A stretch of DNA of 64,000 nt from Myxococcaceae bacterium (GTDB lineage: Bacteria > Myxococcota > Myxococcia > Myxococcales > Myxococcaceae), in assembly GCA_046351675.1 (NCBI GenBank), contig JAXLYB010000002.1:1-64000 (forward strand). Reading direction: 5' to 3'. The position numbers and the translations under genes are program-made. The stretch's first letter is position 1. Every line of letters begins with the position of its first letter. Below, piece by piece: positions 1 through 60,302 of the stretch. Below the pieces are notes generated by a model, which searched no databases, was not told where the DNA came from, and saw only the letters and a list, made by a program, of their open reading frames with translations.

Positions 1-25
1 CTCTCCCCCCTGGGGAGAGGGGGTG
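1..25. repeat. REP-like palindromic element (partial, at the window edge)
   Basis: ctctcccccctggggagagggggtg. It supplies the GGAGAG Shine-Dalgarno sequence upstream of the GTG at 25. Confidence 0.5.
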
Positions 26-96
26 TGGACGCACCAGGTTGGGGCACCGGTGCGCCAGCGCGACGCAGCGGCGACGAGGGTCCGCGCGTTTGGGCC

Positions 97-2292
97 ATGG
101 CACGACGCTGGCTCTGCCTCGAGCGCATGGCCGACCGAGACAGCAGAGAGCGCGACATCCTGGTGGCGTCGAACGAGTACGCCTACGTGCAGGACCTCAC
201 GAAGGGCGACATCGTCCTCTACGTCGGCCCGACGAAGATCTCCCTCAGCAACACCGAGCGCCTCGTCGAGCTGAAGAACGACCGCTTCTCCCCGGTGCGC
301 AACGAAGAGGGCAGCGGCGTGCAGCCCTTCGTGACCGCGTCGAGCACGCAGTACGTGGTGCTCGAGAACCCGGCGAAGGACGTGGGCGTGAAGCCGGTGA
401 AGGGCAACAACAGCGCGGTGGAATTGCTGACCGGCCGCCGCGTGGTGGTGCCTGGACCCGCGACGTTCCCGCTCTGGCCTGGCCAGAAGGCGCGCGTCGT
501 CGCCGGGCACGAGCTCTTCGAAGACCAGTACCTGCGCGTGCGCGTCTACGACTCCGTCGAGGGTGAGAAGGCGAGCATCGGCGCCGAGCGCATCGTGCGC
601 GGGTCTGATCAGAGCTTCTTCATTCCGCGCACCGGCCTCGAGGTCGTGCCCGACGAGAAGGGCGGCTACGTGCGCAACGCCGTCACGCTGCTCGACGGCC
701 AGTACTGCGTGCTGCGCGGGCCGCGCGGGCGCCGTCGCTTCGAACGGGGCCCCGCGGTGGTGTTCCCCGAGGCGTGGGAAGACTTCGTGGTGAAGAACGG
801 CGCGCGCGTCTTCCCCGCGTGGCCGCTCAAGCGCGACCGCGGGCTGCACGTGCGCGTGCTGCAGGGCTTCGAGGCGAAGGAAGGCGACGCGGTGCCGGCG
901 GGCCGGTACGAGGCGGGCCAGGAGCTCTTCGTGCACGCGCGCGAGGGCTTCTTCTTTCCCACCGAGGCGCTCGAGGTTTTGGGGGAAGTGCACGCCGTGC
1001 AGCTCGCGGCGAAGGAAGGCGTCTACCTGCGCGACCTGCAGACGGGCGCGGTGCGCACGGTCGAGGGGCCGGCGGCGCTGTTGCCCGACCCGACGCAGGT
1101 GGAGCGCGTGTCCCGTCCGCTCGACGCCGAGACGGTGAAGCGGTGGCGGCTCGCGAAGAGCGACGGCACGCGCGCGCCGACGGTGACGGTGCCTCCGGGC
1201 GAGGCGGTGCTGGTGACGGGCGTGCTCTCGCGCGAGGTGGTGCGCGGGCCGGCGGTGCGGGTGCTCGCGTTCGACGAGACGCTCGAGACGCTGGAGCTGT
1301 CGACGGGCACTCCGAAGAGCACCGACGCGCTGCTGGCGACGTGCTTCCTGCGCGTCGAGGGCAACAAGGTGAGCGACCTGGTGCAGGTGCGCACGTCGGA
1401 CCACGTCGAGCTCGAGGTGCGGCTGTCGTACCGGGTGAACTTCGTGCACCGCGAGGGGGTGGACGACGCGCGGTGGTTCTCGGTGTCGAACTACGTGGGG
1501 CTCTTGTGCGACCACCTCGGGAGCCTGGTGCGCGCGGCGGTGCGGTCGGTGCCCATCGAGCGGTTCCACGCGGCGAGCGCGGAGATCCTGCGGACCGCGG
1601 TGCTCGGTCAGAAGCCGGGTGATGGGGCGCGGGCGCGGGTGTTCGAAGAGAACGGCATGAGCGTGTACGACGTCGAAGTGCTCGACGTGAGCATCCTCGA
1701 CGAGGCGGTCGAGACGTTGCTCACCGACGCGCAGCGCACGGCCATCACCGCGGAGGTGGCGCGGAAGCGCGAGCAGCTGCGGCTGCAGACCGAGGAGACG
1801 CGCGAGGCGGTGGCGCGGGCCATCTCGGCGGCGCAGCGCGAGACGCTGGTGGTCGAGACGGAGCTCGAGGCGAGCCGGCGGGCGCTGTCGGTGGCGAAGG
1901 TGGAAGCGAAGGCCGAGGCAGCGCGGCTCGAGGCGCTGGGGAAGGCGCGCGCGACGGCCGATGCGCTCGAGCTGCAGTCGCAAGCGGAAGCGGCGGCGGG
2001 CGCGCGGCGCGTGCAGGTCGAGAAGCAGCAGCTCGACGCGCGGGCGGAGGCGTTCAAGGCGCAGATGGCGGCGCTGCACCCTGAGCTGGTGGCGACCTTG
2101 AAGACCCTGGGGGATCAGCAGTTCGCGGCGTCGTTGACGTCGAACTTGTCGCCGCTGGCGATCCTCGGCGGCAAGTCGGTGGCCGAGGTCGCAGAGCGGT
2201 TGTTGGCGGGGCTGCCGGCGAAGTTCCCGTCCCCCCTCTCCCCCGATGGGGAGAGGGTCGGGGTGAGGGGAGACGCTGCAGAGCCCAGGTGA
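97..2292 (+). CDS. Major vault protein (MVP) homolog. The alternative starts are the GTG at 25, which has a Shine-Dalgarno sequence from the upstream REP element, and the ATG at 127.
   Basis: Full-length collinear similarity to eukaryotic MVP. N-terminal MVP-repeat region: YAYVQDLTKGDIVLYVGPTKISL vs human [22 protein letters not shown]. Shoulder domain: FSVSNYVGLLCDHLGSLVRAAVRSVPIERFHAASAEILRTAVLG vs [44 protein letters not shown]. Ala/Glu-rich cap-helix coiled coil. Cap-ring tail: LTSNLSPLAILGGKSVAEV vs LKSTLITDGSTPINLF. The last ~15 codons run into a REP element. Confidence 0.8.
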   Translation: MARRWLCLERMADRDSRERDILVASNEYAYVQDLTKGDIVLYVGPTKISLSNTERLVELKNDRFSPVRNEEGSGVQPFVTASSTQYVVLENPAKDVGVKPVKGNNSAVELLTGRRVVVPGPATFPLWPGQKARVVAGHELFEDQYLRVRVYDSVEGEKASIGAERIVRGSDQSFFIPRTGLEVVPDEKGGYVRNAVTLLDGQYCVLRGPRGRRRFERGPAVVFPEAWEDFVVKNGARVFPAWPLKRDRGLHVRVLQGFEAKEGDAVPAGRYEAGQELFVHAREGFFFPTEALEVLGEVHAVQLAAKEGVYLRDLQTGAVRTVEGPAALLPDPTQVERVSRPLDAETVKRWRLAKSDGTRAPTVTVPPGEAVLVTGVLSREVVRGPAVRVLAFDETLETLELSTGTPKSTDALLATCFLRVEGNKVSDLVQVRTSDHVELEVRLSYRVNFVHREGVDDARWFSVSNYVGLLCDHLGSLVRAAVRSVPIERFHAASAEILRTAVLGQKPGDGARARVFEENGMSVYDVEVLDVSILDEAVETLLTDAQRTAITAEVARKREQLRLQTEETREAVARAISAAQRETLVVETELEASRRALSVAKVEAKAEAARLEALGKARATADALELQSQAEAAAGARRVQVEKQQLDARAEAFKAQMAALHPELVATLKTLGDQQFAASLTSNLSPLAILGGKSVAEVAERLLAGLPAKFPSPLSPDGERVGVRGDAAEPR
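2233..2271. repeat. REP-like palindromic element
   Basis: cccctctcccccgatggggagagggtcggggtgagggga. It overlaps the 3' end of the MVP gene. Confidence 0.7.
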
Positions 2293-2354
2293 GCGCAGAC
2301 GCACCGAGGCTGCTGGAGTCCTGACTTCAGGCGATTGGCGACGTCGCAGGTGAC

Positions 2355-2390
2355 TCCCCTCACCCCACCCTCTCCCCAAGGGGGAGAGGG
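2355..2390. repeat. REP-like palindromic element (inverted relative to 2233)
   Basis: tcccctcaccccaccctctccccaagggggagaggg. Confidence 0.7.
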
Positions 2391-2393
2391 AGA

Positions 2394-2828
2394 TCAGGCC
2401 AACACGGCGCGCGAGGCAGTCGACGCTTCGCGCACCGGCTTCGCGCGCGCCTCGAACAGCGGCGCATACGCCGCCCGGTAGCTCCACGCGAGCCACAGGT
2501 GCGCACCGAGCACGAACACCGGCGCCCCGAGCTGCCCGAACTCGACCAGCGTGTGGAAGCCGATGATGTTCACCGTCACCGGCGCCAGCACCACGAGCGC
2601 GAGCGGCACGAAGCGGTTGGTCAACAGCGCGACGCCCACCGTCAGCTCGACGATCTTCACCAGCGTCATCACGTACGTCGCCGCCAACGCCGCCGACCAC
2701 TGCGCCGCGAGCCCCTCGTGGGGCGGCATCGGCGCGAGGTGCAACAGGCCCATGAGCCCGGCCGAACTCAGCAACAGGCCCAACAACACGCGGGGAACGG
2801 CGACCGGCAGATTGAGCTTCGAAAGCAT
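2394..2828 (-). CDS. DoxX family membrane protein
   Basis: Four hydrophobic helices and a DoxX-like N-terminus (MLSKLNLPVAVPRVLLGLLLSSAGL). Start chosen at the internal Met of ORF 2394..2891. Divergent from a LysR regulator gene. Confidence 0.7.
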   Translation of the reverse strand: MLSKLNLPVAVPRVLLGLLLSSAGLMGLLHLAPMPPHEGLAAQWSAALAATYVMTLVKIVELTVGVALLTNRFVPLALVVLAPVTVNIIGFHTLVEFGQLGAPVFVLGAHLWLAWSYRAAYAPLFEARAKPVREASTASRAVLA

Positions 2829-2925
2829 GTGTCTCTCCAGGTGAAAGGTTCGACCGGGAGATAAGGTCGTTGCTCCAGCAGCACCAGCCATGGCACCGGC
2901 AACTCTTTGTTGCTACTTCAGCAAC

Positions 2926-3873
2926 ATGGACTGGAGCCGCGTCCCCGTCTTCCTGAAGGTCGTCGAGACCGAGAGCATCACCCGCGCCGCCGAAGCGCTG
3001 CGCCTGCCGAAGTCGTCGGTGAGCCGCACCGTCACCGCGCTCGAGCGCGACCTCGAGACCCAGCTGCTCACCCGCACCACCCGCCAGCTCAAGCTCACCG
3101 ACGCCGGCCGCCAGTTCTACGAGCGCGCCAAGGCCGCCCGCGCCGCCCTCGAGGAAGCGACCGCCGAGCTCGCGCACCAGAGCGACGACGCGCAGGGCGT
3201 GGTGCGGGTCACCGTCGCACCGAACGCCTGGCCCCTGAGCATCCTCTTCACGCGCTTCACGAAGGAACACCCGAAGGTGCACGTCGAGGTGCTCGCCACC
3301 AACCGCCACGTCAACCTCGTCGAAGAGGGCATCGACCTCGCCATTCGCGCCGGCTCGATGCCCGACAGCTCGCTCATCGCCCGCAAGATCGCGACCTCGG
3401 AGCTCGGGCTGTTCGCGTCACCCACCTACCTCGCGCGCAAGGGCACGCCGCGCCGCGTGGAGGACTTGAACGAGCACGAGGTGGTGATGTTCCGCGCGCG
3501 GCACGGCGCTGCGCAGCTGCGCCTGAGCGGCCCCGAGGGCGACGTGGTGGTCGCGGTGCAGGGACGCGTCAGCGCGGACGACCTGAGCTTCGTGCGCGCG
3601 TTCATCACCCTCGACGCGGGCATCGGGCTGTTGCCGCTCATCATGTCGGCCGGGCCGCGGACCGACGGGCGGCTGGTGCGCGTGTTGCCCGAGTGGAAGG
3701 TGAAGGGCTCGGGTCTGCACCTCGTGATGCCGGCTGCGCGGTATGTGCCGACGCGGGTCAGGTTGCTCGCTGATTTCATCGCCACGCACTTCGATGGGGC
3801 GCAGCTGTGCCAGGTGGCGAAGGAGCTGTCGGGGCCGTCTCAGGCGAAGAAGAAGGTGAAGCGGACAGCGTGA
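2926..3873 (+). CDS. LysR family transcriptional regulator
   Basis: N-terminal HTH (VFLKVVETESITRAAEALRLPKSSVSRTVTALERDLETQLLTRTTRQLKLTDAGRQFY) followed by a LysR substrate-binding domain. Divergent from its neighbour, the classic LysR arrangement. Confidence 0.85.
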   Translation: MDWSRVPVFLKVVETESITRAAEALRLPKSSVSRTVTALERDLETQLLTRTTRQLKLTDAGRQFYERAKAARAALEEATAELAHQSDDAQGVVRVTVAPNAWPLSILFTRFTKEHPKVHVEVLATNRHVNLVEEGIDLAIRAGSMPDSSLIARKIATSELGLFASPTYLARKGTPRRVEDLNEHEVVMFRARHGAAQLRLSGPEGDVVVAVQGRVSADDLSFVRAFITLDAGIGLLPLIMSAGPRTDGRLVRVLPEWKVKGSGLHLVMPAARYVPTRVRLLADFIATHFDGAQLCQVAKELSGPSQAKKKVKRTA

Positions 3874-3874
3874 C

Positions 3875-3911
3875 TCCCCTCACCCCAACCCTCTCCCCAC
3901 GGGGAGAGGGG
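3875..3911. repeat. REP-like palindromic element
   Basis: tcccctcaccccaaccctctccccacggggagaggg. Confidence 0.7.
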
Positions 3912-4183: not shown

Positions 4184-4693
4184 GTGGCCACGCGAAAACC
4201 AGCGAAGAAGAAGGCCGTAGCGAAGAAGGCCAAACCGGCGCCGAAGAAGGCCGCGCCGAAGAAGAAGGCCGCCCCTTCGAAGAAGCCCGCCGCCAGGAAG
4301 AAGTCGCCCGGCGCGCCGCGCAGCTCGCCCCCGCGCGCGCCCGTGCTCCAGCCCGACATCACCGCCCCGCCCGCCCCGCGCCCGGTGCGCGCACGCCGCG
4401 TGAGCATCGGTGAAGCGCTCGCACAGCTGAACGCCGCCACGCTCGAGGGCGTCACGAAGGAGCTCGTGCCCTTCGGCCTCAACCCCGACGCGCCGCTCAC
4501 GCCCTCGGTCTCGCTCGCCTCGCTGCTCGGCCCCGATGCGCGCCCGGTGAGCGCACTGATCTCCGCGCTCGAGCAGTGGGACGGCGAAGGTGCCGACCTC
4601 ATGCTGGTGAACGAGGCGTCCACGCTCCTGCGCGCCGAGCCGCGCGACCCCGCCGCGCTCGAGGCCTTCGTGCGCCGCAACTGCCTGGCATGA
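4184..4693 (+). CDS. Histone H1-like Lys/Ala-rich protein
   Basis: N-terminal 45 aa are an AKKAAPKK-type repeat region typical of bacterial H1/Hc1-like nucleoid proteins, followed by a globular C-terminal domain. Stop overlaps the next gene start. Confidence 0.55.
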   Translation: MATRKPAKKKAVAKKAKPAPKKAAPKKKAAPSKKPAARKKSPGAPRSSPPRAPVLQPDITAPPAPRPVRARRVSIGEALAQLNAATLEGVTKELVPFGLNPDAPLTPSVSLASLLGPDARPVSALISALEQWDGEGADLMLVNEASTLLRAEPRDPAALEAFVRRNCLA

Positions 4694-5508
4694 GCCGCGC
4701 GCGCCGCCCCGCGACGACGCCGGTGCTCGACCTCCGCTCGGTCGACGAGGGCCTGTCGACCGTGCAGCGCCGCTTCTTCGACGAGGCCCTGCCGCGCGAG
4801 GTGCACCTCGCGGCGTTCGAGCGCTTCGACCCCTCCCGCTACGACGACGCCGAGCTCCGCTGGGGCCGCGAGTCGTGGGAATTGCGCACGCTCGACGAGT
4901 ACCGCTCGCAGGTCGGCTTCACCGACTTCCTCCTGCAGCTCACCGAGCTCGGCGGCGCGTTCGACACGCTGACCGCCGCGGTGCGCGTGGTGCGCGACGA
5001 GGCCCGCCACGTCGAGCTGTGCCGCCGCCTGGTGCGCGCGCTCGGCGGCAGCGACGTGATTCCCGGCGAGCCGAACTGGGTGCGCGCCGACGTCACCGAG
5101 AGCCAGCGCGTGCGCGTGGTGATGATGATCACCGGCAGCCTCTGCATCGGCGAGACGCTCTCGACCGCGCTGCTCGCCGCCACGCGCGACGTCACCACCG
5201 ACGCCCTCGCGAAGGGCGTCGTCACCGCGCTCACCCGTGACGAGTCGTTCCACTCGCAGCTCGGGTGGACCCTGCTCGCCCAGCTCTGGCCGGTGCTCAC
5301 CGCGAAGGAGCGCAAGCGCGTCGAGCAGCGCATCACGTCCGACCTCCACAGCGCCCACGAGGCGGTGTTCGAGAACTGCGACGACGACTCCGCCGAGCCA
5401 CGCAACCCGTTCGGCCACCTGAAGACCGCCGAGCGCCAGGTCGTCTACGAGCGCTCGCTCGAGCGCGACGTGCTGCGACGCTTCGCGAAGCTCGGCATCA
5501 AGGCCTGA
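4690..5508 (+). CDS. Ferritin-like (diiron-carboxylate type) domain protein
   Basis: Two ExxH motifs (DEARH, DESFH) in predicted helical stretches. Start ATG overlaps the stop of the upstream histone-like gene. The antisense 480-aa ORF is an artefact. Confidence 0.5.
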   Translation: MSRARRPATTPVLDLRSVDEGLSTVQRRFFDEALPREVHLAAFERFDPSRYDDAELRWGRESWELRTLDEYRSQVGFTDFLLQLTELGGAFDTLTAAVRVVRDEARHVELCRRLVRALGGSDVIPGEPNWVRADVTESQRVRVVMMITGSLCIGETLSTALLAATRDVTTDALAKGVVTALTRDESFHSQLGWTLLAQLWPVLTAKERKRVEQRITSDLHSAHEAVFENCDDDSAEPRNPFGHLKTAERQVVYERSLERDVLRRFAKLGIKA

Positions 5509-5510: not shown

Positions 5511-5538
5511 CGACCCACCTCCCCTCGGGGGCAGAGGG
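5511..5538. repeat. REP-like element, degenerate
   Basis: cctcccctcgggggcagaggg. Confidence 0.4.
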
Positions 5539-5566: not shown

Positions 5567-5605
5567 TCCCCTCACCCCGACCCTCTCCCCCTCGGGGGAG
5601 AGGGA
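5567..5605. repeat. REP-like palindromic element
   Basis: cttcccctcaccccgaccctctccccctcgggggagaggg. Confidence 0.7.
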
Positions 5606-14158: not shown

Positions 14159-14303
14159 GGGCGCCTCATTGGCATGGCCCCGCGGGTGAGCGCAACGAGT
14201 GCGCTTTGGATTCCCTTTTGAAAGCCGTCGCGCGCTGACTACGAAGTCACCCCGGGCCGCGACTCCCGCGCCCTCATTCCCACTCACAGCAAGGACACCC
14301 CGC

Positions 14304-14876
14304 ATGCGCTTCGCTCTTCGGCACTACCTCGTCGCTGTCGCCATCGCCGCCTTCGCCACCAGCTGTGGCCCGCCGTGGAAGGTCATCAAGGCGTCTGGCC
14401 CGCCGTCGGCGCTCGAGGGGAAGACCGACGTGGGCGTGGCGTTCGACTACTCGGAGCTGGTCGTCGACGGGAAGCCGCTCTCGCAGTGGATGGAGCTGAA
14501 GACCAAGGAAGACCCCAAGTACCCGGAGACCTGGGCGAACCTGATGGGCAAGTTCGAGACGGGCGTGATGAGCACGTTCAGCTCGGGCTTCGCGGGCGCG
14601 CACCTCGCGACCCAGTCGCCGGGCGCGGCGCAGGTCATCGTGTCGGTGAAGACCTTCCAGATGGGCAAGTACATCGTGATTGGGCAGATCCCCACGGTGA
14701 TGAACGTGCACATCCAGGGCAAGGTCGGCGAGGCCGTGACCGATGAGATCATGATCACCCGCAGCTTCCCCGCGTCGGTGGTGCAGCCGTCGGTGTTCAA
14801 CCACGTGCCGCACGTCGGTGAGCAGGTCGGCAACGTCGCCGCGCAGTTCATGAACGCGGCGCAGCCCAAGAAGTAA
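14304..14876 (+). CDS. Hypothetical lipoprotein
   Basis: Lipobox (IAAFATSC). Divergent from the lipase-like gene. Confidence 0.55.
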   Translation: MRFALRHYLVAVAIAAFATSCGPPWKVIKASGPPSALEGKTDVGVAFDYSELVVDGKPLSQWMELKTKEDPKYPETWANLMGKFETGVMSTFSSGFAGAHLATQSPGAAQVIVSVKTFQMGKYIVIGQIPTVMNVHIQGKVGEAVTDEIMITRSFPASVVQPSVFNHVPHVGEQVGNVAAQFMNAAQPKK

Positions 14877-14882: not shown

Positions 14883-14920
14883 TCCCTCTCCTCTTCCGAG
14901 GAGAGGGTCGGGGTGAGGAG
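14883..14920. repeat. REP-like palindromic element
   Basis: ccctctcctcttccgaggagagggtcggggtgaggaga. Confidence 0.7.
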
Positions 14921-14948
14921 AGAACCCTCGCAGCGCAGTCGGTCGTCT

Positions 14949-14986
14949 TCCCCTCACCCCAACCCTCTCCCCCTCGGGGGAGAGGG
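14949..14986. repeat. REP-like palindromic element (inverted partner). It supplies the Shine-Dalgarno sequence for the histidine kinase at 15002.
   Basis: cccctcaccccaaccctctccccctcgggggagaggg. Confidence 0.7.
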
Positions 14987-15001: not shown

Positions 15002-16603
15002 ATGACCGAGGGCCCTCCTCAACTCCGCCGCAGCGCCGCGCTCACCACGGTGCGCTCGGTGCTCGGCGCGTTGATCCTCGTCGCGCTCTTCGGTTCGATC
15101 GCCGCGGTCGTCAGCTACCGCGCAGACGTCACCGAGGCCCGCCGCCAGGTGCAGGCCCGGGTCGCGCAGCAGGGCCGGCTCTACGCTGACTCCCTCGCGC
15201 TCCACTTCGACGTGCTCGAGGCCGAGCTGCAGCGCCTGGCCGATCGCGGCTTCCAGGCACTCGCCGGCCATGACGAGACCGTGCTCACCACCATTCGCGA
15301 CGACCGCGCGCTCTTCACCGAGGGCGTGGCGTTGCTCGACCTGCACGGCGCGGTGGTGTGGTCCGAGCCCGCGCTCGCGTTCCCCGCCGACGTGCAGCTG
15401 CAGCCCTGGTTCCAGCACGTGCTGGGCCTCGAGAAGTCGACCGTCGACGAGCTGAAGCTGGCCGGCCAGGGCGAAGACAGCTCGCGGCTGGCGGTCGCGT
15501 TGCCCGTGCTCGAAGACGGCAAGCTCGCCGGGCTGCTGGTGGGCGTGGTCGGCTCGAACGACCGCCTCCTCTACGGCGTCGCCGGGCCCGGCGAGCAGCT
15601 GCTGCTCTTGAGCTCGCGCGGTGAGGTCATCTTGCCGGTGCAGGCGCCCGCGTGGTCGAGCAGCACCGAGTTCCAGGTGCGCTTCTCGGCGCTCAAGCAG
15701 CAGCACGACGAGCCGACGATGTGGGACCTCCAGGGCCAGGAGCTCATCGCCGAGGCCTTCGGCGTGAAGGAGACCTCGCTGCAGGTGCTCGCCGTCGAAG
15801 ACTCCGACGTCACCACCGCGCCGATCCGGCGGCGGCTCAACTTCCAGCTCTTCTTCCTGCTCGTGGTGCAGCTCGCCGCGCTCGGCGCGTTCGTGCTCTT
15901 CCTGCGGCGCACGTGGCGCGCCTTCCTCGAAGCCGAGGAGCGCTTCGCCCAGCGCGAGAAGATGGCCGCGCTCGGTGACGCCGCGTCGCTCATCGCGCAC
16001 GAGGTGAAGAACTCGCTCAACGGCTTGAGCGCGGCGACCAGCTTGCTCGAGCGCGGAGGAGATGCCGCGCTGGTCTCGCGCACCGTCACCGGCCAGGTCG
16101 AGCGGCTGGGCCACCTCGCCCGCTCGCTCTTGAGCTTCTCGCGGCCGACCGAGACGCGGCGCGTGAGCGTGCAGCTCGACGCGCTCACCCGCGACACCGT
16201 CAACGCGCTCCACGCGCTGCCCGAGTGGCCGGAGGCGAAGGTCGAGCTCGCGCTCGAGCCCGTGCAGGTGGACAGCGACCCGTTGTTGCTCACCACCGCC
16301 ATCGACAACCTCGTGCGCAACGCCATCGAGGCCGCGGTGCTCGCGAAGGACGTGGGCCAGGTCGCCACGCCGCAGGTGCGCGTCATCGTGAAGCGCGAGG
16401 GAGAGCGCGCCGTGGTGCAGGTCGAAGACAACGCGCGCGCGCCCGCCGAGCTGGAGCAGCGCCTCGGGCAGCCGTTCTTCACCACCAAGCCGCGCGGCAT
16501 CGGGCTCGGGCTGGCGATGACGCAGAAGGCGATGGAAGAGCTGGGCGGCACGCTGCGCTTCGAGCGGCTCGAGGGCGGCAGCCGGTTTCAGCTCACCCTG
16601 TAG
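15002..16603 (+). CDS. Sensor histidine kinase (membrane, HisKA + HATPase_c)
   Basis: Two TM segments flank a periplasmic domain. H-box: FAQREKMAALGDAASLIAHEVKNSLNGL. G-boxes: TTKPRGIGLGLAMTQKAMEELGGTL. A REP element just upstream supplies the Shine-Dalgarno sequence. Confidence 0.85.
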   Translation: MTEGPPQLRRSAALTTVRSVLGALILVALFGSIAAVVSYRADVTEARRQVQARVAQQGRLYADSLALHFDVLEAELQRLADRGFQALAGHDETVLTTIRDDRALFTEGVALLDLHGAVVWSEPALAFPADVQLQPWFQHVLGLEKSTVDELKLAGQGEDSSRLAVALPVLEDGKLAGLLVGVVGSNDRLLYGVAGPGEQLLLLSSRGEVILPVQAPAWSSSTEFQVRFSALKQQHDEPTMWDLQGQELIAEAFGVKETSLQVLAVEDSDVTTAPIRRRLNFQLFFLLVVQLAALGAFVLFLRRTWRAFLEAEERFAQREKMAALGDAASLIAHEVKNSLNGLSAATSLLERGGDAALVSRTVTGQVERLGHLARSLLSFSRPTETRRVSVQLDALTRDTVNALHALPEWPEAKVELALEPVQVDSDPLLLTTAIDNLVRNAIEAAVLAKDVGQVATPQVRVIVKREGERAVVQVEDNARAPAELEQRLGQPFFTTKPRGIGLGLAMTQKAMEELGGTLRFERLEGGSRFQLTL

Positions 16604-16613: not shown

Positions 16614-16652
16614 CCCTCTCCCCCTGAAGGGGAGAGGGTTGGGGTGAGGGGA
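16614..16652. repeat. REP-like palindromic element
   Basis: ccctctcccctgaaggggagagggttggggtgagggga. It lies immediately after the histidine kinase stop. Confidence 0.7.
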
Positions 16653-16658
16653 GACGCT

Positions 16659-17201
16659 TCAGAACGTCCCCGTCAGCGCAATCGCCGGCGCATTCCCCCT
16701 CATCATCATCGGCATCACCGTCACGCGCGGCTTCTCGGCATCGACCGTCGTGTTGCGCTGCAGCCACTGCGCGGGCTTCGACGCGCCGACGATCGCCGTC
16801 ACCACACCACCCACCTGCACCGCGGTCTCGCTGACCATCAACATCGTGAACCAGAACGCCGCGAAGCCGCGCCAGAACTGCTGGTCGCCCAGGAAGCTCG
16901 ACCATTCCGACGGCTGGCTCGCCCAGTTCCACGCGTTCACCATCGCGATGAGCGGACCCGCCACCGGCACCAGCAGCGTCAGGTCCTGCGTCGGCAGCGC
17001 CCAGAGCGCGGTGGTGGCGTAACCCGCGGCGAAGGCACCGAGGCCGGCGCCGATGACCGCCCAGCGCGGCTGCTCGACGAGGTGGTACCCCTCGGGGACG
17101 AAGCCGTCGCGCGAGACCTTGAGGCGCTCGGGCACGGGGGCTTCGACCATCGGCGGAGGGGTCTGCGCAACGGAGAGCGTGACGAGGAGCGAGAGGAGCA
17201 T
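16659..17201 (-). CDS. Hypothetical membrane/secreted protein
   Basis: Signal-like N-terminus (MLLSLLVTLSVAQ) and several hydrophobic helices. Start taken at the internal Met of ORF 16659..17363. Confidence 0.45.
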   Translation of the reverse strand: MLLSLLVTLSVAQTPPPMVEAPVPERLKVSRDGFVPEGYHLVEQPRWAVIGAGLGAFAAGYATTALWALPTQDLTLLVPVAGPLIAMVNAWNWASQPSEWSSFLGDQQFWRGFAAFWFTMLMVSETAVQVGGVVTAIVGASKPAQWLQRNTTVDAEKPRVTVMPMMMRGNAPAIALTGTF

Positions 17202-17368
17202 GCCGCGAAGGTGTGCAAGCCGGTCGCCTTCGGGGATTAGCGGGGTTGCGCGCCGAGACTGCGCAGTCGGCTGCACACCGTGTGCGTCCCGTTTCAGGGC
17301 TTTCGAGGGCTTTCCGAGGGCCTCGTTCGAGGCGGATCCACCTCGCGCCCGGCAGCAACCCACCGGCC

Positions 17369-18190
17369 ATGAAGCTGACCCTCTTCGCAGCGTGGGCGGG
17401 GCTGACGTTCGGCGCGCCCTTCGCGGTGCTGGCGCTGCACGGTGCGGGGCTGCCGCTCTCCGCCGGCGTGCTCGCGATGACCGCCCTCGCCACGCTCGCC
17501 GTCACCGTCGCCGAACACGTCGCGCCGTTCGAGCCGAAGTGGAGCGTGGACCACGGAGACGCCCGCGTCGACCGGCTCCACGCGCTCGGTTCGATGGCCG
17601 TCGTCGCGGCGCTCGTGCCCCTCGTCGCGCGCGTGCCGAGCCTCGGGTGGTGGCCGACGCGCTGGCCCTTCGTCGCGCAGCTCGCCGCCGCGCTGCTGCT
17701 CGCCGAGCTCGGCGCGTACTGGGCGCACCGGCTGATGCACACCACGCAGCTGCTCTGGCGCGTCCACCTCGTGCACCACAGCGCGCGGCGGCTCCATGCG
17801 CTCAACGCGTCCCGCAACCACCCGCTCGACACCGCGCTCGGGTTCCTCGCCGCCGCCGTGCCGTTGGTCGCGCTGGGAGCGCCGGCGGAGGTCCTCGCCG
17901 CGACCGGCGCGCTCGCCGCGGTGCACCTCCAGTTCCAGCACCTCAACGCCACGCTCGAGCTGGGGCCGCTCAACCTGCTCTTCGCTGGCCCGGAGCCGCA
18001 CCGCTGGCACCACTCGCGCGTCGAGGCCGAGGCGAACGGCAACTACGGCCACGTGCTCAGCCTGTGGGACGGCGTGTTCGGCACGCGCGTCGCGCCTCCG
18101 GGCCGGCCGCCGGTCGACGTGGGGGTCTTCTCTCCTCGTGACGAGGTGCCCGAGCAGCTCGGCGTGCAGCTCCTGGTGCCCTTCCGATGA
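17369..18190 (+). CDS. Fatty acid hydroxylase / sterol desaturase superfamily membrane enzyme
   Basis: Three His boxes (HRLMH, HLVHH, HRWHH) and multiple TM helices. Confidence 0.75.
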   Translation: MKLTLFAAWAGLTFGAPFAVLALHGAGLPLSAGVLAMTALATLAVTVAEHVAPFEPKWSVDHGDARVDRLHALGSMAVVAALVPLVARVPSLGWWPTRWPFVAQLAAALLLAELGAYWAHRLMHTTQLLWRVHLVHHSARRLHALNASRNHPLDTALGFLAAAVPLVALGAPAEVLAATGALAAVHLQFQHLNATLELGPLNLLFAGPEPHRWHHSRVEAEANGNYGHVLSLWDGVFGTRVAPPGRPPVDVGVFSPRDEVPEQLGVQLLVPFR

Positions 18191-18990
18191 AGCACGTCAC
18201 CTTCGACGATGGCCGGCAGATGTGGGCGCTCAACGCGGTCGACGCGGCGATGCTCCACCAGCAGATCTACCGCGCGCAGACGTACGCGCGGCCGGGGTGG
18301 ACGCTGCGGGAAGGCGCGTGCGTGTTCGACGTCGGCGCGAACATCGGCCTGTGCTCGCGCTGGCTCACCGAGCAGCACCGCGGCTTGCGGCTGTTTGCGT
18401 TCGAGCCCGCGCCGGAGACCTTCGCCGCGCTCGAGCGTAACGCGGCCGAGTTCACCGGCGCCGAGGTGACGCTCTTGCGCTGCGCGCTGGGCGAGCGACG
18501 CGGTGAGGCGATGCTCACCTTCGACCGCCTCGCGAGTTCGATGGCGTCGCTGCGGGAAGAGGGGCCGGCGGTCGATGCACGCGCGTGGCAGAGCGCCGTC
18601 GCGGCGGACCTGAAGCTGCCCCGCGTCGCGGTCGCGGCCGTCGAGCTCGCGCGCCGCGTGTTGCGCCGCCGTGTGCCGTGCGAGGTGCGCACGCTGTCTG
18701 ACGTCATCGCCGAGTACGGCGTCGAGCGCATCGACCTGCTCAAGCTCGACGTCGAGGGCGTGGAGCTGCAGGTGCTGCGCGGCGTGAGCGACGCCGACTG
18801 GGCGCGCATCGAGCAGGTGGTGGTGGAGACGGACGACGTGCCAGCAGTGTGCGCGTTGCTCGAGCGGCAGGGCTTCGCGGTCGACGTCACTCAAGACGCG
18901 GGAGCCACGTACCGGCTGCTCGGGCTCTACAACGTGTTCGCACGCCGCCCTCCTCTCCCTCTCCTCCCGAGGAGGAGAGGGTCGGGGTGA
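18187..18990 (+). CDS. FkbM family SAM-dependent methyltransferase
   Basis: Motif FDVGANIGLCS ... LLKLDVEGVELQVL is typical of the FkbM family. Its start overlaps the upstream stop (ATGA). The C-terminal ~14 aa are encoded by a REP element. Confidence 0.75.
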   Translation: MKHVTFDDGRQMWALNAVDAAMLHQQIYRAQTYARPGWTLREGACVFDVGANIGLCSRWLTEQHRGLRLFAFEPAPETFAALERNAAEFTGAEVTLLRCALGERRGEAMLTFDRLASSMASLREEGPAVDARAWQSAVAADLKLPRVAVAAVELARRVLRRRVPCEVRTLSDVIAEYGVERIDLLKLDVEGVELQVLRGVSDADWARIEQVVVETDDVPAVCALLERQGFAVDVTQDAGATYRLLGLYNVFARRPPLPLLPRRRGSG

Positions 18991-18995
18991 GGAGA
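18956..18995. repeat. REP-like palindromic element. It overlaps the 3' end of the FkbM gene.
   Basis: ccctctcctcccgaggaggagagggtcggggtgaggaga. Confidence 0.7.
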
Positions 18996-19006
18996 AACCT
19001 CGAGCT

Positions 19007-19045
19007 GCGGTGCGGATAACGCTGCCACAGCCCATGATCCGCACC
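19007..19045 (+). other. Conserved stem-loop motif, copy 1 (GGTGCGGA-N21-TCCGCACC)
   Basis: gcggtgcggataacgctgccacagcccatgatccgcacc, about 17 nt after the FkbM stop and between two REP elements. Near-identical to the element at 49932-49970 on the opposite strand. Confidence 0.5.
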
Positions 19046-19110
19046 GGCGAGGGGCTGCGTGGGTCGTGCAGTCACGAGACCCGTCACACCGTCGAACGGC
19101 ACTCGGCTTC

Positions 19111-19149
19111 TCTCCTCACCCCAACCCTCTCCTCCTCGGGAGGAGAGGG
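19111..19149. repeat. REP-like palindromic element (inverted partner). It contains the Shine-Dalgarno sequence and precedes the ATG of the sigma-54 activator.
   Basis: tctcctcaccccaaccctctcctcctcgggaggagaggg. Confidence 0.7.
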
Positions 19150-19151: not shown

Positions 19152-20522
<1,371 letters not shown>

Positions 20523-38730: not shown

Positions 38731-38818
38731 GTCGCGACGACGCGACGACGACGCGACGACGACGACGACCGACGACGACGCGACGACCACGCGACGACCA
38801 CGCGACGACGACGACGGA
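38731..38818. repeat. (CGACGA)n-like GC-rich microsatellite
   Basis: gtcgcgacgacgcgacgacgacgcgacgacgacgacgaccgacgacgacgcgacgaccacgcgacgacc... It lies immediately after the kinase stop and before a REP pair. Confidence 0.75.
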
Positions 38819-38820: not shown

Positions 38821-38859
38821 CCCTCTCCTCCCGAGGAGGAGAGGGTTGGGGTGAGGAGA
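38821..38859. repeat. REP-like palindromic element
   Basis: ccctctcctcccgaggaggagagggttggggtgaggaga. Confidence 0.7.
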
Positions 38860-38928
38860 AAAACGTCGAAGCTCAGCTTCGTCGCTGCTCGAGCGGTGGT
38901 GCTGTCTCGGCTTCTTCTGAAGGGTTAC

Positions 38929-38964
38929 TCCTCACCCCGACCCTCTCCTCTGAAGAGGAGAGGG
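38929..38964. repeat. REP-like palindromic element (inverted partner)
   Basis: tcctcaccccgaccctctcctctgaagaggagaggg. Confidence 0.7.
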
Positions 38965-45137: not shown

Positions 45138-45174
45138 CCCTCTCCTCTTCAGAGGAGAGGGTTGGGGTGAGGAG
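45138..45174. repeat. REP-like palindromic element
   Basis: ccctctcctcttcagaggagagggttggggtgaggag. Confidence 0.7.
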
Positions 45175-45201
45175 TAACCGAACTCTGCGCTCTGAGGCGT
45201 C

Positions 45202-45240
45202 TCTCCTCACCCCGACCCTCTCCTCCTCGGGAGGAGAGGG
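45202..45240. repeat. REP-like palindromic element (inverted partner)
   Basis: tctcctcaccccgaccctctcctcctcgggaggagaggg. Confidence 0.7.
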
Positions 45241-55969: not shown

Positions 55970-56979
55970 AGGCAGGTGGTCTGGCACATCTCGGAGCAAC
56001 ACTCCTCGGCCGCCCCGCACGTGACGCCACCCGCCTTGCACATCGGCACGTTCACGTTCACCGAGTTCAGGAAGAGCGCCCCCGAGAGCTGCACGGTCAC
56101 CGCGGTCGCGCTCATCGGCGGGTCCACCCCGAGGAAGTACGAGCTGTCGCCCGCGCGGAAACCGCTCGCGCCGCAGTTCGACAAGCCCATGCCGCCCTGG
56201 CGCAGCGTCGTGGTCGGGTTGGTGTTCGCCGCCGCCGGAGCGGGCATGCCGAGGCCGGTCGCGCTCACCTCGAGGAAATTGCACTGGCCGGGCTTCAAGA
56301 AGGTGCCCGCGTCGAGGAAGAGCGTCGCCTGCGCGGTGAAGGTCTGGACGCGGGTGCTGATGGTGAAGCCCTGGTTCGTCACGCCCGCGTACCAGCGGAA
56401 GGTGCCGAAGCGGCTCGTCTTCACCGCGGACGCGTCGCTCGCGGTCGGAGGCTGGTTGCAGCTCAAGTTGCCGAAGTATGCGAAGCCCGGGTCGGGCACC
56501 GCGACGTAGTCCATCGGGAGGTTGCAGAACACGTCGCCGCCGCCCGGCGGGTCGGGCTTGAGTGCCTGCAACGAGAGCTGGATGCAGTCGTTCACCTCGC
56601 CGCTGGTGAAGCCGCCGATGTTGAAGCGGTTGAACAAGCAGCCGGGCATGACGCCGCCGTCGCCCTGGCCAGCTCCTGCGAGGGGATCAGGCCCCGCGTC
56701 TGGTGCGCCGCCACCCGTCGCCATGCCGCCGCCCGTCGCCGTGCCGCCGCCCGTCGCCGTGCCGCCGCCCATCGCCGTGCCGCCGCCCATCGCCGTGCCG
56801 CCGCCCATCGCGGTGCCGCCACCCATCGCGGTGCCGCCACCCGTCGCGGTGCCGCCGCCCGCACCGCCGCCGACCTCGGTGCCGCCATCGCAGCGGCCGG
56901 TCTCGGCGCAGTAGTCGCGAAACGCGCCTGAGAAGTCGCAACCCGCGAGCACCAGCGCGAAGAGGAGCGCGCGCTTCAC
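55966..56979 (-). CDS. Lipoprotein with (GGGTAM)n hexapeptide repeats and Cys-rich C-terminus
   Basis: GTG start with GGAGGTG Shine-Dalgarno sequence. Lipobox LVLAGC. About 9 copies of an 18-bp repeat. Middle gene of a three-gene minus-strand operon. Confidence 0.65.
   Translation of the reverse strand: MKRALLFALVLAGCDFSGAFRDYCAETGRCDGGTEVGGGAGGGTATGGGTAMGGGTAMGGGTAMGGGTAMGGGTATGGGTATGGGMATGGGAPDAGPDPLAGAGQGDGGVMPGCLFNRFNIGGFTSGEVNDCIQLSLQALKPDPPGGGDVFCNLPMDYVAVPDPGFAYFGNLSCNQPPTASDASAVKTSRFGTFRWYAGVTNQGFTISTRVQTFTAQATLFLDAGTFLKPGQCNFLEVSATGLGMPAPAAANTNPTTTLRQGGMGLSNCGASGFRAGDSSYFLGVDPPMSATAVTVQLSGALFLNSVNVNVPMCKAGGVTCGAAEECCSEMCQTTCL
56703..56870 (-). repeat. 18-bp coding tandem repeat encoding GGGTA(M/T), about 9 copies
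   Basis: Plus-strand units gccgtgccgccgcccatc / gcggtgccgccacccgtc. Confidence 0.8.
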
Positions 56980-59012: not shown

Positions 59013-59014
59013 GC

Positions 59015-59054
59015 CCCCTCTCCCCCCGAGGGGGAGAGGGTTGGGGTGAGGGGA
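59015..59054. repeat. REP-like palindromic element
   Basis: ccctctccccccgagggggagagggttggggtgagggga. It follows directly after the recF stop. Confidence 0.7.
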
Positions 59055-59132
59055 AGATCCAGCACGGCCGGCGGAGCGATGAATGCAGGTGGCAGTCGCT
59101 GATCAGCGTGGTCGCCAAGCCCGCTCCCTGCC

Positions 59133-59168
59133 CCCTCTCCCCCTGGGGAGAGGGTTGGGGTGAGGGGA
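59133..59168. repeat. REP-like palindromic element (same orientation as the one at 59015)
   Basis: ccctctccccctggggagagggttggggtgagggga. Confidence 0.7.
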
Positions 59169-59271
59169 AAGCCCAGCACGGCGCGCGCGGAGACCTCGGG
59201 ACCAACGATGTGCTGCTGACCGTTCGCCGCCGGCCTCACCTGTTACGCATGTTTCCGGCTGTACACGCGTC

Positions 59272-59307
59272 TCCCCTCACCCCGACCCTCTCCCCGCGGG
59301 GAGAGGG
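59272..59307. repeat. REP-like palindromic element (inverted). It overlaps the 3' end of gene 59277..60302.
   Basis: tcccctcaccccgaccctctccccgcggggagaggg. Confidence 0.7.
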
Positions 59308-60302
59308 GGTGCGTCTCGCCATGCTGCGAGGTCCTGCTCGGCCAGTTGCTGCCCGACCTCGCGCAACCGCTCCTCCGGCAGGTGCGCGAGCACGGTGCAC
59401 AGATCCTCTGCGCTGACGGGCTCGCGCGCACCGAGCGCGAGACACACGCGATCAATCTCACCCGAGGGAATGGTCAACGCGGCCTGCTCTCCCTCGATGC
59501 TGTAGTGGCCGCCCTGCCGTCGCCACGCGCCGACCGGCGTGCGCGACAGCCCCCGCAGCGTCGGGCTCTGCAGCAGCCGCACCAGCCGCACCACGTCATC
59601 CCCCTCGACCTCCACGTCGCCGAAGCGCGCGCTCGCGAGGGTGCTGCGCCGCCCCGAGCCGAGTGTGACCTCCGACCAGGGCCACCGGCGGCCGCGCGCG
59701 AAGAAGCCATCGGCATGCAGCGACCACGGCGAGCGCCCGCGGGCGCTGACCAGCGTGGCGACGATGATCAACAGCCCCACCACCCACGAGCTCGGGTGCC
59801 TCCCGGCGTCGTCGGAGAACGCGAGCATCGCCAGCACGTACGCCCCGATGGCGAGCCCGCCAAAGAGCGCCGAGACCTCTGCCGCGACGCGGCTCTGGCG
59901 AAATCGCGTCTCCGCGGGCCCGGGCGGAGTTCGGCTCTCGACGATGTCCTCCGCAGCACGGACCAGCGAGACCTCGAATCGCAACGTGCCGGAGACGCGA
60001 CGGGCCAACGCGGCGCGCACCGCCTCTCGTTCATGGCGCACCAGCGCACTCAACTCGCCCCCGCTTCCATCAGGCAACGCGTCGACCGCCGCGAGCGCCC
60101 GCTCGAGCTCCGGCCACGTGCGCGCCAGCTCGCGCAAGGTGCCCGGGTCGTCGAGCGACTGCACCTCTCGCTCCAGCGCCGCGCGCGCCGAGGCGAGCAG
60201 CGCCACCCCGTCTTCGAGCAACTCGACCTTGCCCTCGAGGCGCGTGCGGTCATCGGGCGAGATGGCGGCTGATTCCGCGCGGCGCAGGTGCTCGTGGCTC
60301 AT
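59277..60302 (-). CDS. Hypothetical membrane protein
   Basis: Internal Met start (MSHEHL). Coiled-coil N-terminus and two TM helices. The C-terminal roughly 13 aa are encoded by a REP element. Start overlaps the upstream stop (ATGA). Confidence 0.45.
   Translation of the reverse strand: MSHEHLRRAESAAISPDDRTRLEGKVELLEDGVALLASARAALEREVQSLDDPGTLRELARTWPELERALAAVDALPDGSGGELSALVRHEREAVRAALARRVSGTLRFEVSLVRAAEDIVESRTPPGPAETRFRQSRVAAEVSALFGGLAIGAYVLAMLAFSDDAGRHPSSWVVGLLIIVATLVSARGRSPWSLHADGFFARGRRWPWSEVTLGSGRRSTLASARFGDVEVEGDDVVRLVRLLQSPTLRGLSRTPVGAWRRQGGHYSIEGEQAALTIPSGEIDRVCLALGAREPVSAEDLCTVLAHLPEERLREVGQQLAEQDLAAWRDAPPLPAGRGSG

What the first reader, a model, noticed from the sequence alone, without database searches (positions are those of the whole stretch)
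1..59312. Family of 18 REP-like 40-bp palindromic elements, frequently in inverted pairs (MITE-like composites)
All copies share the consensus CCCTCWCCCC(R)ACCCTCTCCYC-N3-5-GRGGAGAGGG, a 10-bp stem with a 16-nt one-sided extension, and all are intergenic. Single copies: 2233-2271, 2355-2390, 3875-3911, 5511-5538 (degenerate), 5567-5605 and 16614-16652. Five loci carry two or three copies in opposite orientation within 30-130 bp, forming larger composite palindromes: 14883-14986, 18956-19149, 38821-38964, 45138-45240 and 59015-59307. This density, roughly one per 3.5 kb, and the pairing suggest an actively spreading or recombinogenic element family, not simple terminators.
Basis: seen in the sequence. 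Interest (0 to 1): 0.55.

Follow-up and report, generated by a model that had tools for sequence, protein, structure and literature searches.

The report
BoxC triplex-motif repeats, hugely amplified
The 18 short repeats are real, but they belong to a known, widespread bacterial repeat family (BoxC, also called PIT or TMECO) that folds into a hairpin plus a third strand; what is unusual is that this uncultured myxobacterium carries them more than ten times more densely than any published genome.

Summary
The window holds 16 complete copies, one decayed copy and one copy cut by the window start. Their consensus is CCCTCTCCYC-loop-GRGGAGAGGG-TYG-GGGTGAGGRG; shuffles predict 0.01 matches.

This is not a new REP family. 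It is the BoxC / PIT / TMECO / HPG1-2 motif, described in E. coli and 262 proteobacterial genomes. The "16-nt one-sided extension" is the third strand of an intrastrand purine-motif triplex.

New here:
- **Density.** About one copy per 3.5 kb in a Myxococcaceae MAG. About 37 kb from its nearest available relatives holds none, and a short-read contig of the same organism breaks inside the elements at both ends.
- **Two subfamilies.** They differ by a three-way compensated change, C-G*G to T-A*A. The same covariation recurs across phyla. It fits a triplex, not a G-quadruplex or an alternative hairpin.
- **Pairs.** Copies pair with third strands facing inward, and the two members almost always differ in the second loop.
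- **Operon split.** A 2.5-kb, three-gene block bounded by inverted copies splits a histidine kinase / response regulator pair that is adjacent in relatives.

No transposase is in the window and no target-site duplication is seen. The most likely reading is a non-autonomous, REPIN-like selfish repeat selected as folded single-stranded DNA. Its mobiliser is unknown.

The parts
1..23 (.). Hairpin part of a copy cut by the window start (CTCTCCCCCCTGGGGAGAGGG). No third block follows, so if there is one it lies upstream of the window.
2234..2270 (+). Complete copy, C-type, loop 2 TCG. Left member of an inverted pair with 2356-2390. ORF 25-2292 reads through it.
2356..2390 (-). Complete copy, C-type, loop 2 one base short (TG). 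Right member of the pair. Ends 3 nt from the stop of the minus-strand gene 2394-2891.
3876..3910 (-). Single copy, C-type, loop 2 TTG. Starts 2 nt after the LysR gene stop at 3873.
5511..5538 (-). Decayed copy. The hairpin is recognisable; the third block has degenerated and overlaps the stop of ORF 4576-5508.
5568..5604 (-). Single copy, C-type, loop 2 TCG.
14884..14986 (.). Inverted pair: T-type/TCG (+, 14884-14920) and C-type/TTG (-, 14950-14986). It fills the 125-bp gap between ORF 14199-14876 and the histidine kinase gene, and folds as one long hairpin.
16614..16651 (+). Single copy, C-type, loop 2 TTG. Starts 10 nt after the histidine kinase stop. It is the left boundary of the 2.5-kb block that splits the kinase/regulator pair.
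16614..19149 (.). Block of three genes: ORF 16659-17363(-), a fatty-acid hydroxylase at 17213-18190, and an FkbM methyltransferase at 18187-18990. It is bounded by inverted copies and is absent between the orthologous kinase and regulator genes of three relatives.
18957..19149 (.). Inverted pair: T-type/TCG (+, 18957-18994) and T-type/TTG (-, 19112-19149), spacer about 117 bp. The TGA of the left copy's third block is the stop codon of ORF 18187-18990. The response regulator starts about 20 nt after the right copy.
38821..38964 (.). Inverted pair: T-type/TTG (+) and T-type/TCG (-), between convergent genes. Ends 10 nt from the stop of the minus-strand gene that ends at 38975.
45138..45240 (.). 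Inverted pair: T-type/TTG (+) and T-type/TCG (-). Starts 11 nt after the stop of an adenylate-cyclase-domain ORF that ends at 45126. Long hairpin of -42 kcal/mol, z -7.5.
59016..59307 (.). Three C-type copies: 59016-59053 (+, TTG), 59133-59167 (+, TTG) and 59273-59307 (-, TCG). They fill the gap between convergent genes. The stop codon of ORF 59277-60341(-) is the TGA of the last copy's third block.

Best explanation
The elements are members of the BoxC / PIT / TMECO family. The unit has three blocks:
- a pyrimidine block, CCCTCTCCYC;
- its Watson-Crick partner, GRGGAGAGGG;
- after a 3-nt loop, a mirror image of that partner, GGGTGAGGRG.

On a single DNA strand this folds into a hairpin with the third block lying antiparallel on the purine strand, a purine-motif intrastrand triplex.

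I read the family as a non-autonomous, selfish, structure-defined repeat. Its usual unit of spread is an inverted doublet with the third blocks facing inward, shaped like a REPIN. It is copied into short spacers next to stop codons without duplicating the target.

It has amplified massively in this Myxococcaceae lineage, and its copies mark sites of local rearrangement.

**Shown here:** family identity, lineage-specific amplification, the pairing rules, the three-way covariation, and the element-bounded block that splits an operon.

**Inferred:** the folded single strand, exposed for example at replication forks, is what selection or a trans-acting enzyme sees; and a mobilising enzyme is encoded elsewhere in the genome or on a phage or plasmid.
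For: **Identity**
- The blocks are identical to the E. coli TMECO sequences. Loop 2 TCG also occurs there: compare Table 1, nos. 12 and 20.
- The published pattern is CCCTCNCCC-N3-6-GGGNGAGGG-N3-GGGNGAGGG.
- The same sequence was described as a G-quadruplex/hairpin switch.

**Amplification**
- The window has 18 copies in 64 kb. The published maximum is 143 per genome, and Myxococcus xanthus has 1.
- About 37.5 kb from relatives at 70-78% identity holds none; Poisson p = 2.6e-5.
- A short-read contig of the same organism matches window 2248-3902 at 100%, and both of its ends lie inside elements.

**Selection on the blocks**
- There are 0 changes in 30 block positions across 16 copies, against 11 different loop-1 sequences.

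**Triplex geometry**
- C-type and T-type differ by C-G*G versus T-A*A in 16 of 16 window copies.
- Among 77 distinct copies from other genomes that the scan patterns did not fix, the counts are 56 C-G*G, 11 T-A*A, 3 G-C*T and 7 other; Fisher p = 5.5e-12.
- The co-varying base is at the 3' end of block 3. That is the mirror position, not the one that would pair with block 1.
- With block 2 fixed as G, block 3 has G in 115 of 116 copies.

**Doublets**
- Adjacent copies less than 300 bp apart: +/- 60, -/+ 13, +/+ 4, -/- 3. There is no bias at longer spacing.
- 63 of 66 pairs differ in loop 2.
- Pairs fold into one long hairpin, z -4.2 to -7.5.

**Rearrangement**
- The kinase and regulator genes are 4-10 nt apart in three relatives. 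Here they are 2.5 kb apart, and the extra block is bounded by inverted copies.

**Spread across hosts**
- Exact 22-23-nt matches occur in at least 120 loci in each of the genome, metagenome and viral collections, across many phyla.
Against: - No transposase, RAYT or other candidate mobiliser was found in the window. None was apparent from inspecting the ORFs between 14 distant copy pairs in other loci, but those ORFs were not scanned against any library.
- Relatives differ at the genus level, so presence versus absence cannot be dated. No empty site of the same species was seen.
- Holder et al. found double-stranded DNA, not triplex, in vitro when the complement was present, and no triplex footprint in vivo. 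Earlier work found no effect on replication in vivo.
- The covariation may rest on only a few ancestral events, since subfamilies inherit all three changes together.
- The G-C*T class is not a canonical triad. The abstract of PMC9757063 says no natural nucleotide recognises a CG pair.
- The window may not be representative of the whole genome.
Confidence: 0.6

Rival explanations
1. Host-selected RNA-level 3'-end elements. The GC-rich hairpin would act as a transcript-end stabiliser or a factor-dependent terminator, as many REP sequences do, and the copies would be kept because they serve the flanking genes.
For: - Every one of the 11 element loci lies within 11 nt of a stop codon, or contains one.
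- Four loci lie between convergent genes.
- Stems are invariant while loops vary.
- The hairpin is stable as a single strand: -12.4 to -12.6 kcal/mol, z -2.5 to -2.9.
Against: - There is no T-run. The terminator-like scan found 7 sites against 7.7 expected, with only one element flagged.
- PIT elements showed no terminator or promoter activity in E. coli.
- Both orientations occur after genes, so transcripts carry either the G-rich or the C-rich version.
- An RNA hairpin does not explain the mirror-image covariation of block 3. According to the introduction of PMC4666352, purine-motif triplexes do not form in RNA.
- One copy lies between genes that are translationally adjacent in relatives, which looks like an insertion, not a conserved signal.
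Confidence: 0.2
2. REP/RAYT system in the strict sense. The copies would be REP sequences, their doublets REPINs, mobilised by a REP-associated tyrosine transposase encoded elsewhere in the genome.
For: - Inverted doublets are strongly over-represented and fold into one long hairpin.
- No target-site duplication is seen.
- The copies are extragenic and numerous.
Against: - No Y1/HUH transposase domain was found in any window ORF.
- None was apparent from inspecting the ORFs between 14 distant copy pairs in other genomes.
- REP families are species-specific. This sequence is nearly identical across phyla.
- The conserved GTAG of REPs is absent.
- Holder et al. found no link to mobile elements in E. 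coli.
Confidence: 0.12
3. G-quadruplex / hairpin / duplex regulatory switch (Kaplan et al. 2016). The G-rich strand would fold into a three-tetrad quadruplex that competes with the hairpin and regulates neighbouring genes.
For: - C-type copies carry four G-runs of three or more, GGGG-AGA-GGG-TY-GGGG-TGA-GGGG.
- CD data in E. coli are compatible with a K+-dependent quadruplex.
Against: - T-type copies keep only two runs of three or more G, yet are equally conserved. There are 7 of 16 in the window and at least 120 metagenome loci.
- The T-type changes are compensated in the triplex register, not in a quadruplex register.
- NMR of the E. coli sequence showed 18 imino signals, read as triplex and not quadruplex.
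Confidence: 0.05

Closest known systems
BoxC / PIT element / TMECO intrastrand triplex motif (Bachellier et al. 1990s; Hoyne et al. 2000; Holder et al. 2015, PMC4666352). The same sequence is called HPG1/HPG2 in Kaplan et al. 2016, PMC5100583.
   Same: - Same three blocks, with loops of 3-6 and 3 nt.
- Extragenic, with no strand bias.
- Inverted pairs whose members differ in loop 2.
- No associated mobile-element gene.
- Associated with local genome rearrangement.
   Different: - Density is about 1 per 3.5 kb, against at most about 1 per 33 kb (143 per genome) in the published survey.
- The host is an uncultured Myxococcaceae lineage. M. xanthus has 1 copy.
- Loop 2 is TTG/TCG, not TTA/CCG.
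- Nearly half the copies are a T-type subfamily (CCCTCTCCTC / GAGGAGAGGG / GGGTGAGGAG) that does not fit the strict published pattern.
- Copies abut stop codons, whereas no distance trend was seen in E. coli.
REP sequences and REPIN doublets mobilised by RAYT transposases (Nunvar 2010; Bertels and Rainey 2011; cited from my own knowledge).
   Same: - Short extragenic palindromes.
- Inverted doublets that form a long hairpin and behave as the unit.
- No target-site duplication.
- Conserved stems with variable loops.
   Different: - No RAYT was found.
- No GTAG motif.
- The sequence is shared across phyla and is not species-specific.
- There is an extra mirror-repeat third block that REPs lack.
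MITEs (miniature inverted-repeat transposable elements).
   Same: About 100-300 bp composites with terminal inverted repeats, non-coding and multicopy.
   Different: - No target-site duplication.
- Spacers between the two ends are unrelated between copies and range from 28 to 117 bp.
- No parent insertion sequence with matching ends is known.

Membership tests
BoxC / PIT / TMECO | Sequence pattern CCCTCNCCC-N3-6-GGGNGAGGG-N3-GGGNGAGGG, one mismatch tolerated | tested here: met
   - 9 C-type copies match exactly, apart from one with a 2-nt loop 2.
- 7 T-type copies differ only at the compensated triad.
- The pattern is quoted.
BoxC / PIT / TMECO | Extragenic location, no strand bias | tested here: met
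   - 8 plus-strand and 8 minus-strand complete copies.
- All lie between ORFs or overlap only the last codons of an ORF.
BoxC / PIT / TMECO | Frequent inverted pairs made of two different loop-2 types | tested here: met
   - 6 of 6 window pairs are heterotypic.
- 63 of 66 are heterotypic over all loci.
- E. coli has 5 of 5 A+B pairs.
BoxC / PIT / TMECO | The single strand folds into a purine-motif intrastrand triplex (CD/NMR) | not testable with these tools
   - No tool models triplexes.
- The C-type blocks equal those of the oligonucleotides shown to form a triplex.
- The covariation is indirect support.
REP / REPIN-RAYT | A RAYT (Y1/HUH transposase) gene flanked by the repeats | tested here: not met
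   - No such domain was found in any window ORF.
- None was apparent by inspection between 14 distant copy pairs in other loci.
- The rest of the source genome could not be searched.
REP / REPIN-RAYT | Conserved GTAG tetranucleotide at the 5' foot of the hairpin (recalled from the literature, not looked up here) | tested here: not met
   The flanks of the hairpin read (A/G)NCT-CCCTC or C-CCCCTC; no GTAG.
REP / REPIN-RAYT | Inverted doublets over-represented and able to form one hairpin | tested here: met
MITE | Terminal inverted repeats plus a target-site duplication | tested here: not met
   Inverted ends are present, but the outer flanks of the six pairs share no direct repeat.
Canonical G-quadruplex motif (G3+ N1-7, four runs) | Four runs of at least three G | tested here: inconclusive
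   C-type copies meet it. T-type copies have only two such runs.
Intrinsic terminator | GC-rich hairpin followed by a T-run | tested here: not met
   The scan found 7 sites against 7.7 expected, and only one overlaps an element.
Rfam RNA families | A match at gathering score to any of 4227 models | tested here: not met
   0 matches in the window.

The most novel reading that the evidence does not exclude
The three-way compensated substitutions recur across phyla in the mirror register: C-G*G, T-A*A and possibly G-C*T. They would then be comparative evidence that an intrastrand DNA triplex, not a hairpin, G-quadruplex or RNA fold, is what selection sees in living bacteria.

On this reading the hyper-amplified myxobacterial lineage still carries the active machinery that copies these elements. 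The doublets would also act as portable boundaries for inserting small gene blocks, as at 16614-19149.
Probability: 0.2. Interest if true: 0.75.

Novelty: new member of a known kind. Interest (0 to 1): 0.4.

Why it matters
BoxC/PIT/TMECO repeats have been known for about 30 years, and neither their function nor their way of spreading has been established.

A genome in which they fill a large share of the short intergenic spacers is a much better place than E. coli, with 23 mostly fixed copies, to look for three things: the enzyme that copies them, insertion polymorphism between strains, and any effect on neighbouring genes.

The triad covariation gives a purely comparative test that separates the triplex, quadruplex and hairpin models.

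On the practical side, these elements break short-read assemblies of this organism. They also supply stop codons to some ORFs, which affects annotation.

Tried and rejected
- **Rfam at gathering threshold:** nothing.
- **Exact-protein look-up of the source contig:** failed twice, so the rest of the 1.27-Mb contig could not be read and no genome-wide count was possible.
- **Mobiliser between distant copy pairs:** I inspected the ORFs between 14 distant copy pairs in other loci. They look like ordinary genes and no transposase-like ORF was obvious. They were not scanned against Pfam.
- **Target-site duplications:** none seen at the outer flanks of pairs or singles.
- **Shared spacers:** I checked whether the spacers of the two 104-bp pairs are homologous. 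Only the few bases that extend each element (A-GAC) are shared, so the pairs are not copies of one 104-bp MITE.
- **Tandem duplication at 59016/59133:** only about 15-25 nt beyond the element are shared, so this is not a clean duplication.
- **Literature on the T*C-G triad:** two attempts to confirm from the held papers that T opposite a C-G inversion is the preferred antiparallel triad did not find the statement. That point rests on memory only.
- **Alternative hairpin between blocks 1 and 3:** considered and rejected for this window. The T-type changes would create a C×A mismatch and a T·G wobble in that pairing. It may still matter for the CCCTCGCCCC variants common in other genomes, where block 3 is sometimes GGGCGAGGG.


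Full report
**1. The observation**

A search for the palindromic core with up to 3 mismatches found 9 sites, each hit on both strands. 100 dinucleotide-preserving shuffles gave a mean of 0.01 matches. Reading every reported site showed the same unit each time.

A three-block pattern recovered 16 complete copies, 8 on each strand. There is also a decayed copy at 5511-5538 and a hairpin cut by the window start at 1-23. The count of 18 and the coordinates are therefore correct.

Three corrections:
- 2233-2271 (+) and 2355-2390 (-) form a sixth inverted pair, not two singles.
- Three ORFs run into elements, and two of them use the TGA inside GGGTGAGG as their stop codon.
- The copies fall into two discrete subfamilies.

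The window is about 70% G+C and has no Rfam match at gathering score.

**2. What it is**

A full-text search for the block sequences led to Holder et al. 2015 (PMC4666352). Their motif TMECO has the pattern CCCTCNCCC-N3-6-GGGNGAGGG-N3-GGGNGAGGG. It had been described earlier as BoxC and as the PIT element.

- They found it 3610 times in 262 proteobacterial genomes, with a maximum of 143 in Enterobacter asburiae.
- It occurs 23 times in E. coli K-12, always between genes and with no strand bias. Five inverted pairs always combine a type A copy (loop 2 TTA) with a type B copy (loop 2 CCG).
- E. coli copies 12 and 20 carry GGGAGAGGGTCGGGGTGAGGG, which is identical to the window's copies.
- Kaplan et al. 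2016 (PMC5100583) described the same sequence as a G-quadruplex/hairpin switch.

CD and NMR showed that triplex on single-stranded oligonucleotides. It was not seen in double-stranded DNA or by in vivo DMS footprinting. Earlier work found no promoter, terminator or replication effect in vivo.

**3. The host**

The histidine kinase at 15002-16603 is 100% identical to a protein of a MAG labelled Myxococcaceae bacterium, on a contig of 1,265,016 bp. The next relatives are only about 70% identical and are mostly Archangium MAGs. The gene content fits Myxococcota: several Ser/Thr kinases, a PilZ-kinase, sigma-54 regulators and an RND efflux operon.

In the published survey Myxococcus xanthus has a single TMECO.

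**4. Amplification in this lineage**

- **Density.** The window has 18 copies in 64 kb, about 0.28 per kb. Loci from other genomes that were chosen because they hold a copy carry only 0.06-0.10 further copies per kb.
- **Relatives.** The available DNA comes to about 37.5 kb: L122 with 21.6 kb, L364 with 10.9 kb, plus L121 and L365. It holds no copy. At the window's density the Poisson probability of that is 2.6e-5.
- **An orthologous locus without elements.** In L365 the orthologues of LysR and its divergent neighbour are 77.6% identical in DNA, yet lack both elements that abut these genes in the window.
- **Assembly breaks.** A short-read contig of the same organism, L363 from run SRR26348422, matches window 2248-3902 at 100%. 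Both of its ends lie inside elements, as expected if these are high-copy repeats in that genome.

I could not read the rest of the source contig. The genome-wide number is therefore an extrapolation.

**5. Anatomy and constraints**

Within each subfamily all 30 block positions are invariant in all 16 copies, while loop 1 has 11 different sequences and the flanks are unrelated. So either the blocks are under strong constraint or the copies turn over quickly.

The two subfamilies are:
- C-type: CCCTCTCCCC / GGGGAGAGGG / GGGTGAGGGG, 9 copies.
- T-type: CCCTCTCCTC / GAGGAGAGGG / GGGTGAGGAG, 7 copies.

They differ at one triad, where all three blocks change together: C-G*G becomes T-A*A. The changed base of block 3 lies at its 3' end. 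That is the mirror image of the changed base in block 2, which is where an antiparallel third strand would put it. For a Watson-Crick pairing of block 1 with block 3 it is the wrong place: the T-type changes would create a C×A mismatch and a T·G wobble there.

The pattern is general.
- When block 2 was fixed as G by the scan pattern and block 3 left free, 115 of 116 copies have G.
- Among 77 distinct further copies from about 240 loci that the scan patterns did not fix, the triad is C-G*G in 56, T-A*A in 11, G-C*T in 3 and something else in 7. The Fisher test on the G/A table gives p = 5.5e-12.
- The T-A*A copies come with nine different loop-2 sequences, from 11 loci.
- The T-type itself has at least 120 loci in metagenomes.

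A mirror repeat cannot arise by templated copying. This pattern therefore points to selection on a fold, or to a binding partner with that symmetry.

It also argues against the quadruplex model, because T-type copies keep only two runs of three or more G.

Two caveats apply. Subfamilies inherit all three bases together, so the number of independent events is unknown. And G-C*T is not a canonical triad.

**6. Doublets**

Across all fetched loci, adjacent copies less than 300 bp apart are +/- in 60 cases, -/+ in 13, and direct in 7. At longer spacing the four arrangements are equal. The third blocks therefore face inward.

63 of 66 such pairs differ in loop 2, against about 19% identical pairs expected by chance (binomial p = 5e-4). 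All six window pairs differ, five of them as TTG plus TCG.

Subfamily and loop-1 types are shuffled between pairs, so the pairs are not copies of one master doublet. The heterotypic rule holds nonetheless.

As single strands the pairs fold into one long hairpin, -36 to -42 kcal/mol with z from -4.2 to -7.5. The TTG/TCG difference gives a T·G wobble on one strand and a C×A mismatch on the other.

This matches the shape of REPINs. The other defining REP features are not met: no RAYT, no GTAG, and no species specificity.

**7. Position**

All 11 element loci have a stop codon within 11 nt of an outer boundary, or inside the element. Several pairs fill the entire spacer between two genes. Four loci lie between convergent genes and at least five between co-directional genes. 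Transcripts would carry either orientation. No target-site duplication is seen.

**8. A rearrangement bounded by elements**

In three relatives the histidine kinase gene is followed after 4-10 nt by its sigma-54 response regulator.

In the window the kinase ends at 16603 and the regulator starts near 19170. DNA alignment with L122 shows the two homology blocks ending near 16571 and resuming at 19169.

The intervening 2.5 kb carries three unrelated genes. It starts with a plus-strand copy at 16614 and ends with a minus-strand copy at 19149. This fits the 'genomic instability' that Holder et al. reported around TMECO sites, but here the boundaries are exact.

**9. Spread**

Exact 22-nt matches occur in more than 120 loci of the species-genome collection; the scan stopped at its limit. 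The phyla include Pseudomonadota, Myxococcota, Planctomycetota, Verrucomicrobiota, Chloroflexota, Acidobacteriota, Cyanobacteria, Bacteroidota and Patescibacteria. At least 120 viral contigs also carry a match.

This range is wider than the published one, which was essentially proteobacterial. It makes common descent with horizontal transfer more likely than convergence.

In many alphaproteobacterial copies block 3 also pairs with a CCCCTCACCC 25-45 nt downstream.

**10. Mechanism and rivals**

No ORF in the window has a transposase domain. ORFs lying between distant copy pairs elsewhere look like ordinary genes.

My best reading is a non-autonomous, REPIN-like selfish repeat that selection, or a trans-acting enzyme, sees as folded single-stranded DNA. 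It is tolerated only in short spacers next to stop codons, and it promotes local rearrangement. I give this a confidence of 0.6. Identity is near certain, amplification is likely, and the triplex and the mobiliser are inferred.

The rivals and my confidence in each:
- A host RNA 3'-end function: 0.2.
- A strict REP/RAYT system: 0.12.
- A G-quadruplex switch: 0.05.

**11. Verdict**

This is a real feature and a known family, so the finding is not a discovery of a new kind. It is worth keeping for two reasons. It is by far the densest instance described, and it sits in a phylum where the family was thought nearly absent. The window together with the public loci also yields a comparative test that favours the triplex register.

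Noticed in passing
window 25-2292 (+): The ORF has a strong match to the eukaryotic major vault protein shoulder domain (PF11978, E = 5.6e-31) and a weak vault repeat match. Its last ~20 codons are read through a repeat element.
   Followed up: no
window 15002-16603 and 19170-20522: A histidine kinase and its sigma-54 response regulator are adjacent in three relatives. Here they are separated by three unrelated genes: an unknown ORF, a fatty-acid hydroxylase and an FkbM methyltransferase.
   Followed up: yes
L363 (Logan contig from SRR26348422), equal to window 2248-3902: The same organism is present in a public sequencing run. The short-read contig is 100% identical to the window and stops inside repeat elements at both ends.
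   Followed up: partly
window 32353-32732, 35827-36143, 56707-56861: Long tandem arrays of period 18 (21.6, 17.6 and 8.6 copies, 87-94% matches) lie inside ORFs with no Pfam match. They are presumably hexapeptide-repeat proteins.
   Followed up: no
window 27750-27977: A 63-bp tandem repeat (3.6 copies, 87% matches) lies inside the 1408-aa Ser/Thr kinase ORF 26179-30405.
   Followed up: no
window 40001-42000: Marked AT skew (-0.325) across the DUF4175 gene 40723-43875(-) and the TPR/peptidase gene. It was not examined.
   Followed up: no
window 38735-38816: A CGA/CGACGACGCGA microsatellite of about 80 bp lies directly upstream of the inverted pair at 38821, just after the stop of the kinase gene 37099-38730.
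   Followed up: no
window 4184-4693 and 4576-5508: Two overlapping high-GC3 ORFs in different frames; the second is weakly AurF-like. This may be one gene with a frameshift or a sequencing error. A 36-bp and an 18-bp repeat lie at 4196-4303.
   Followed up: no
L008, L040, L045, L075, L110, L118 and other alphaproteobacterial loci: In these copies the third block GGGGTGAGGGG is followed 25-45 nt later by CCCCTCACCC without a second full element. That gives a two-hairpin variant of the repeat.
   Followed up: partly
L157, L161, L197 (metagenome loci): These copies have block 1 CCCTCGCCCC and block 3 GGGGCGAGGG, so block 1 pairs perfectly with block 3 and mismatches block 2. This hints that some subfamilies use an alternative hairpin.
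   Followed up: no
window 59016-59075 and 59133-59195: The two direct copies share about 15-25 further bases beyond the third block (AAG..CCAGCACGGC..GCGGAG). Some copies may therefore be longer than the 37-nt core.
   Followed up: partly
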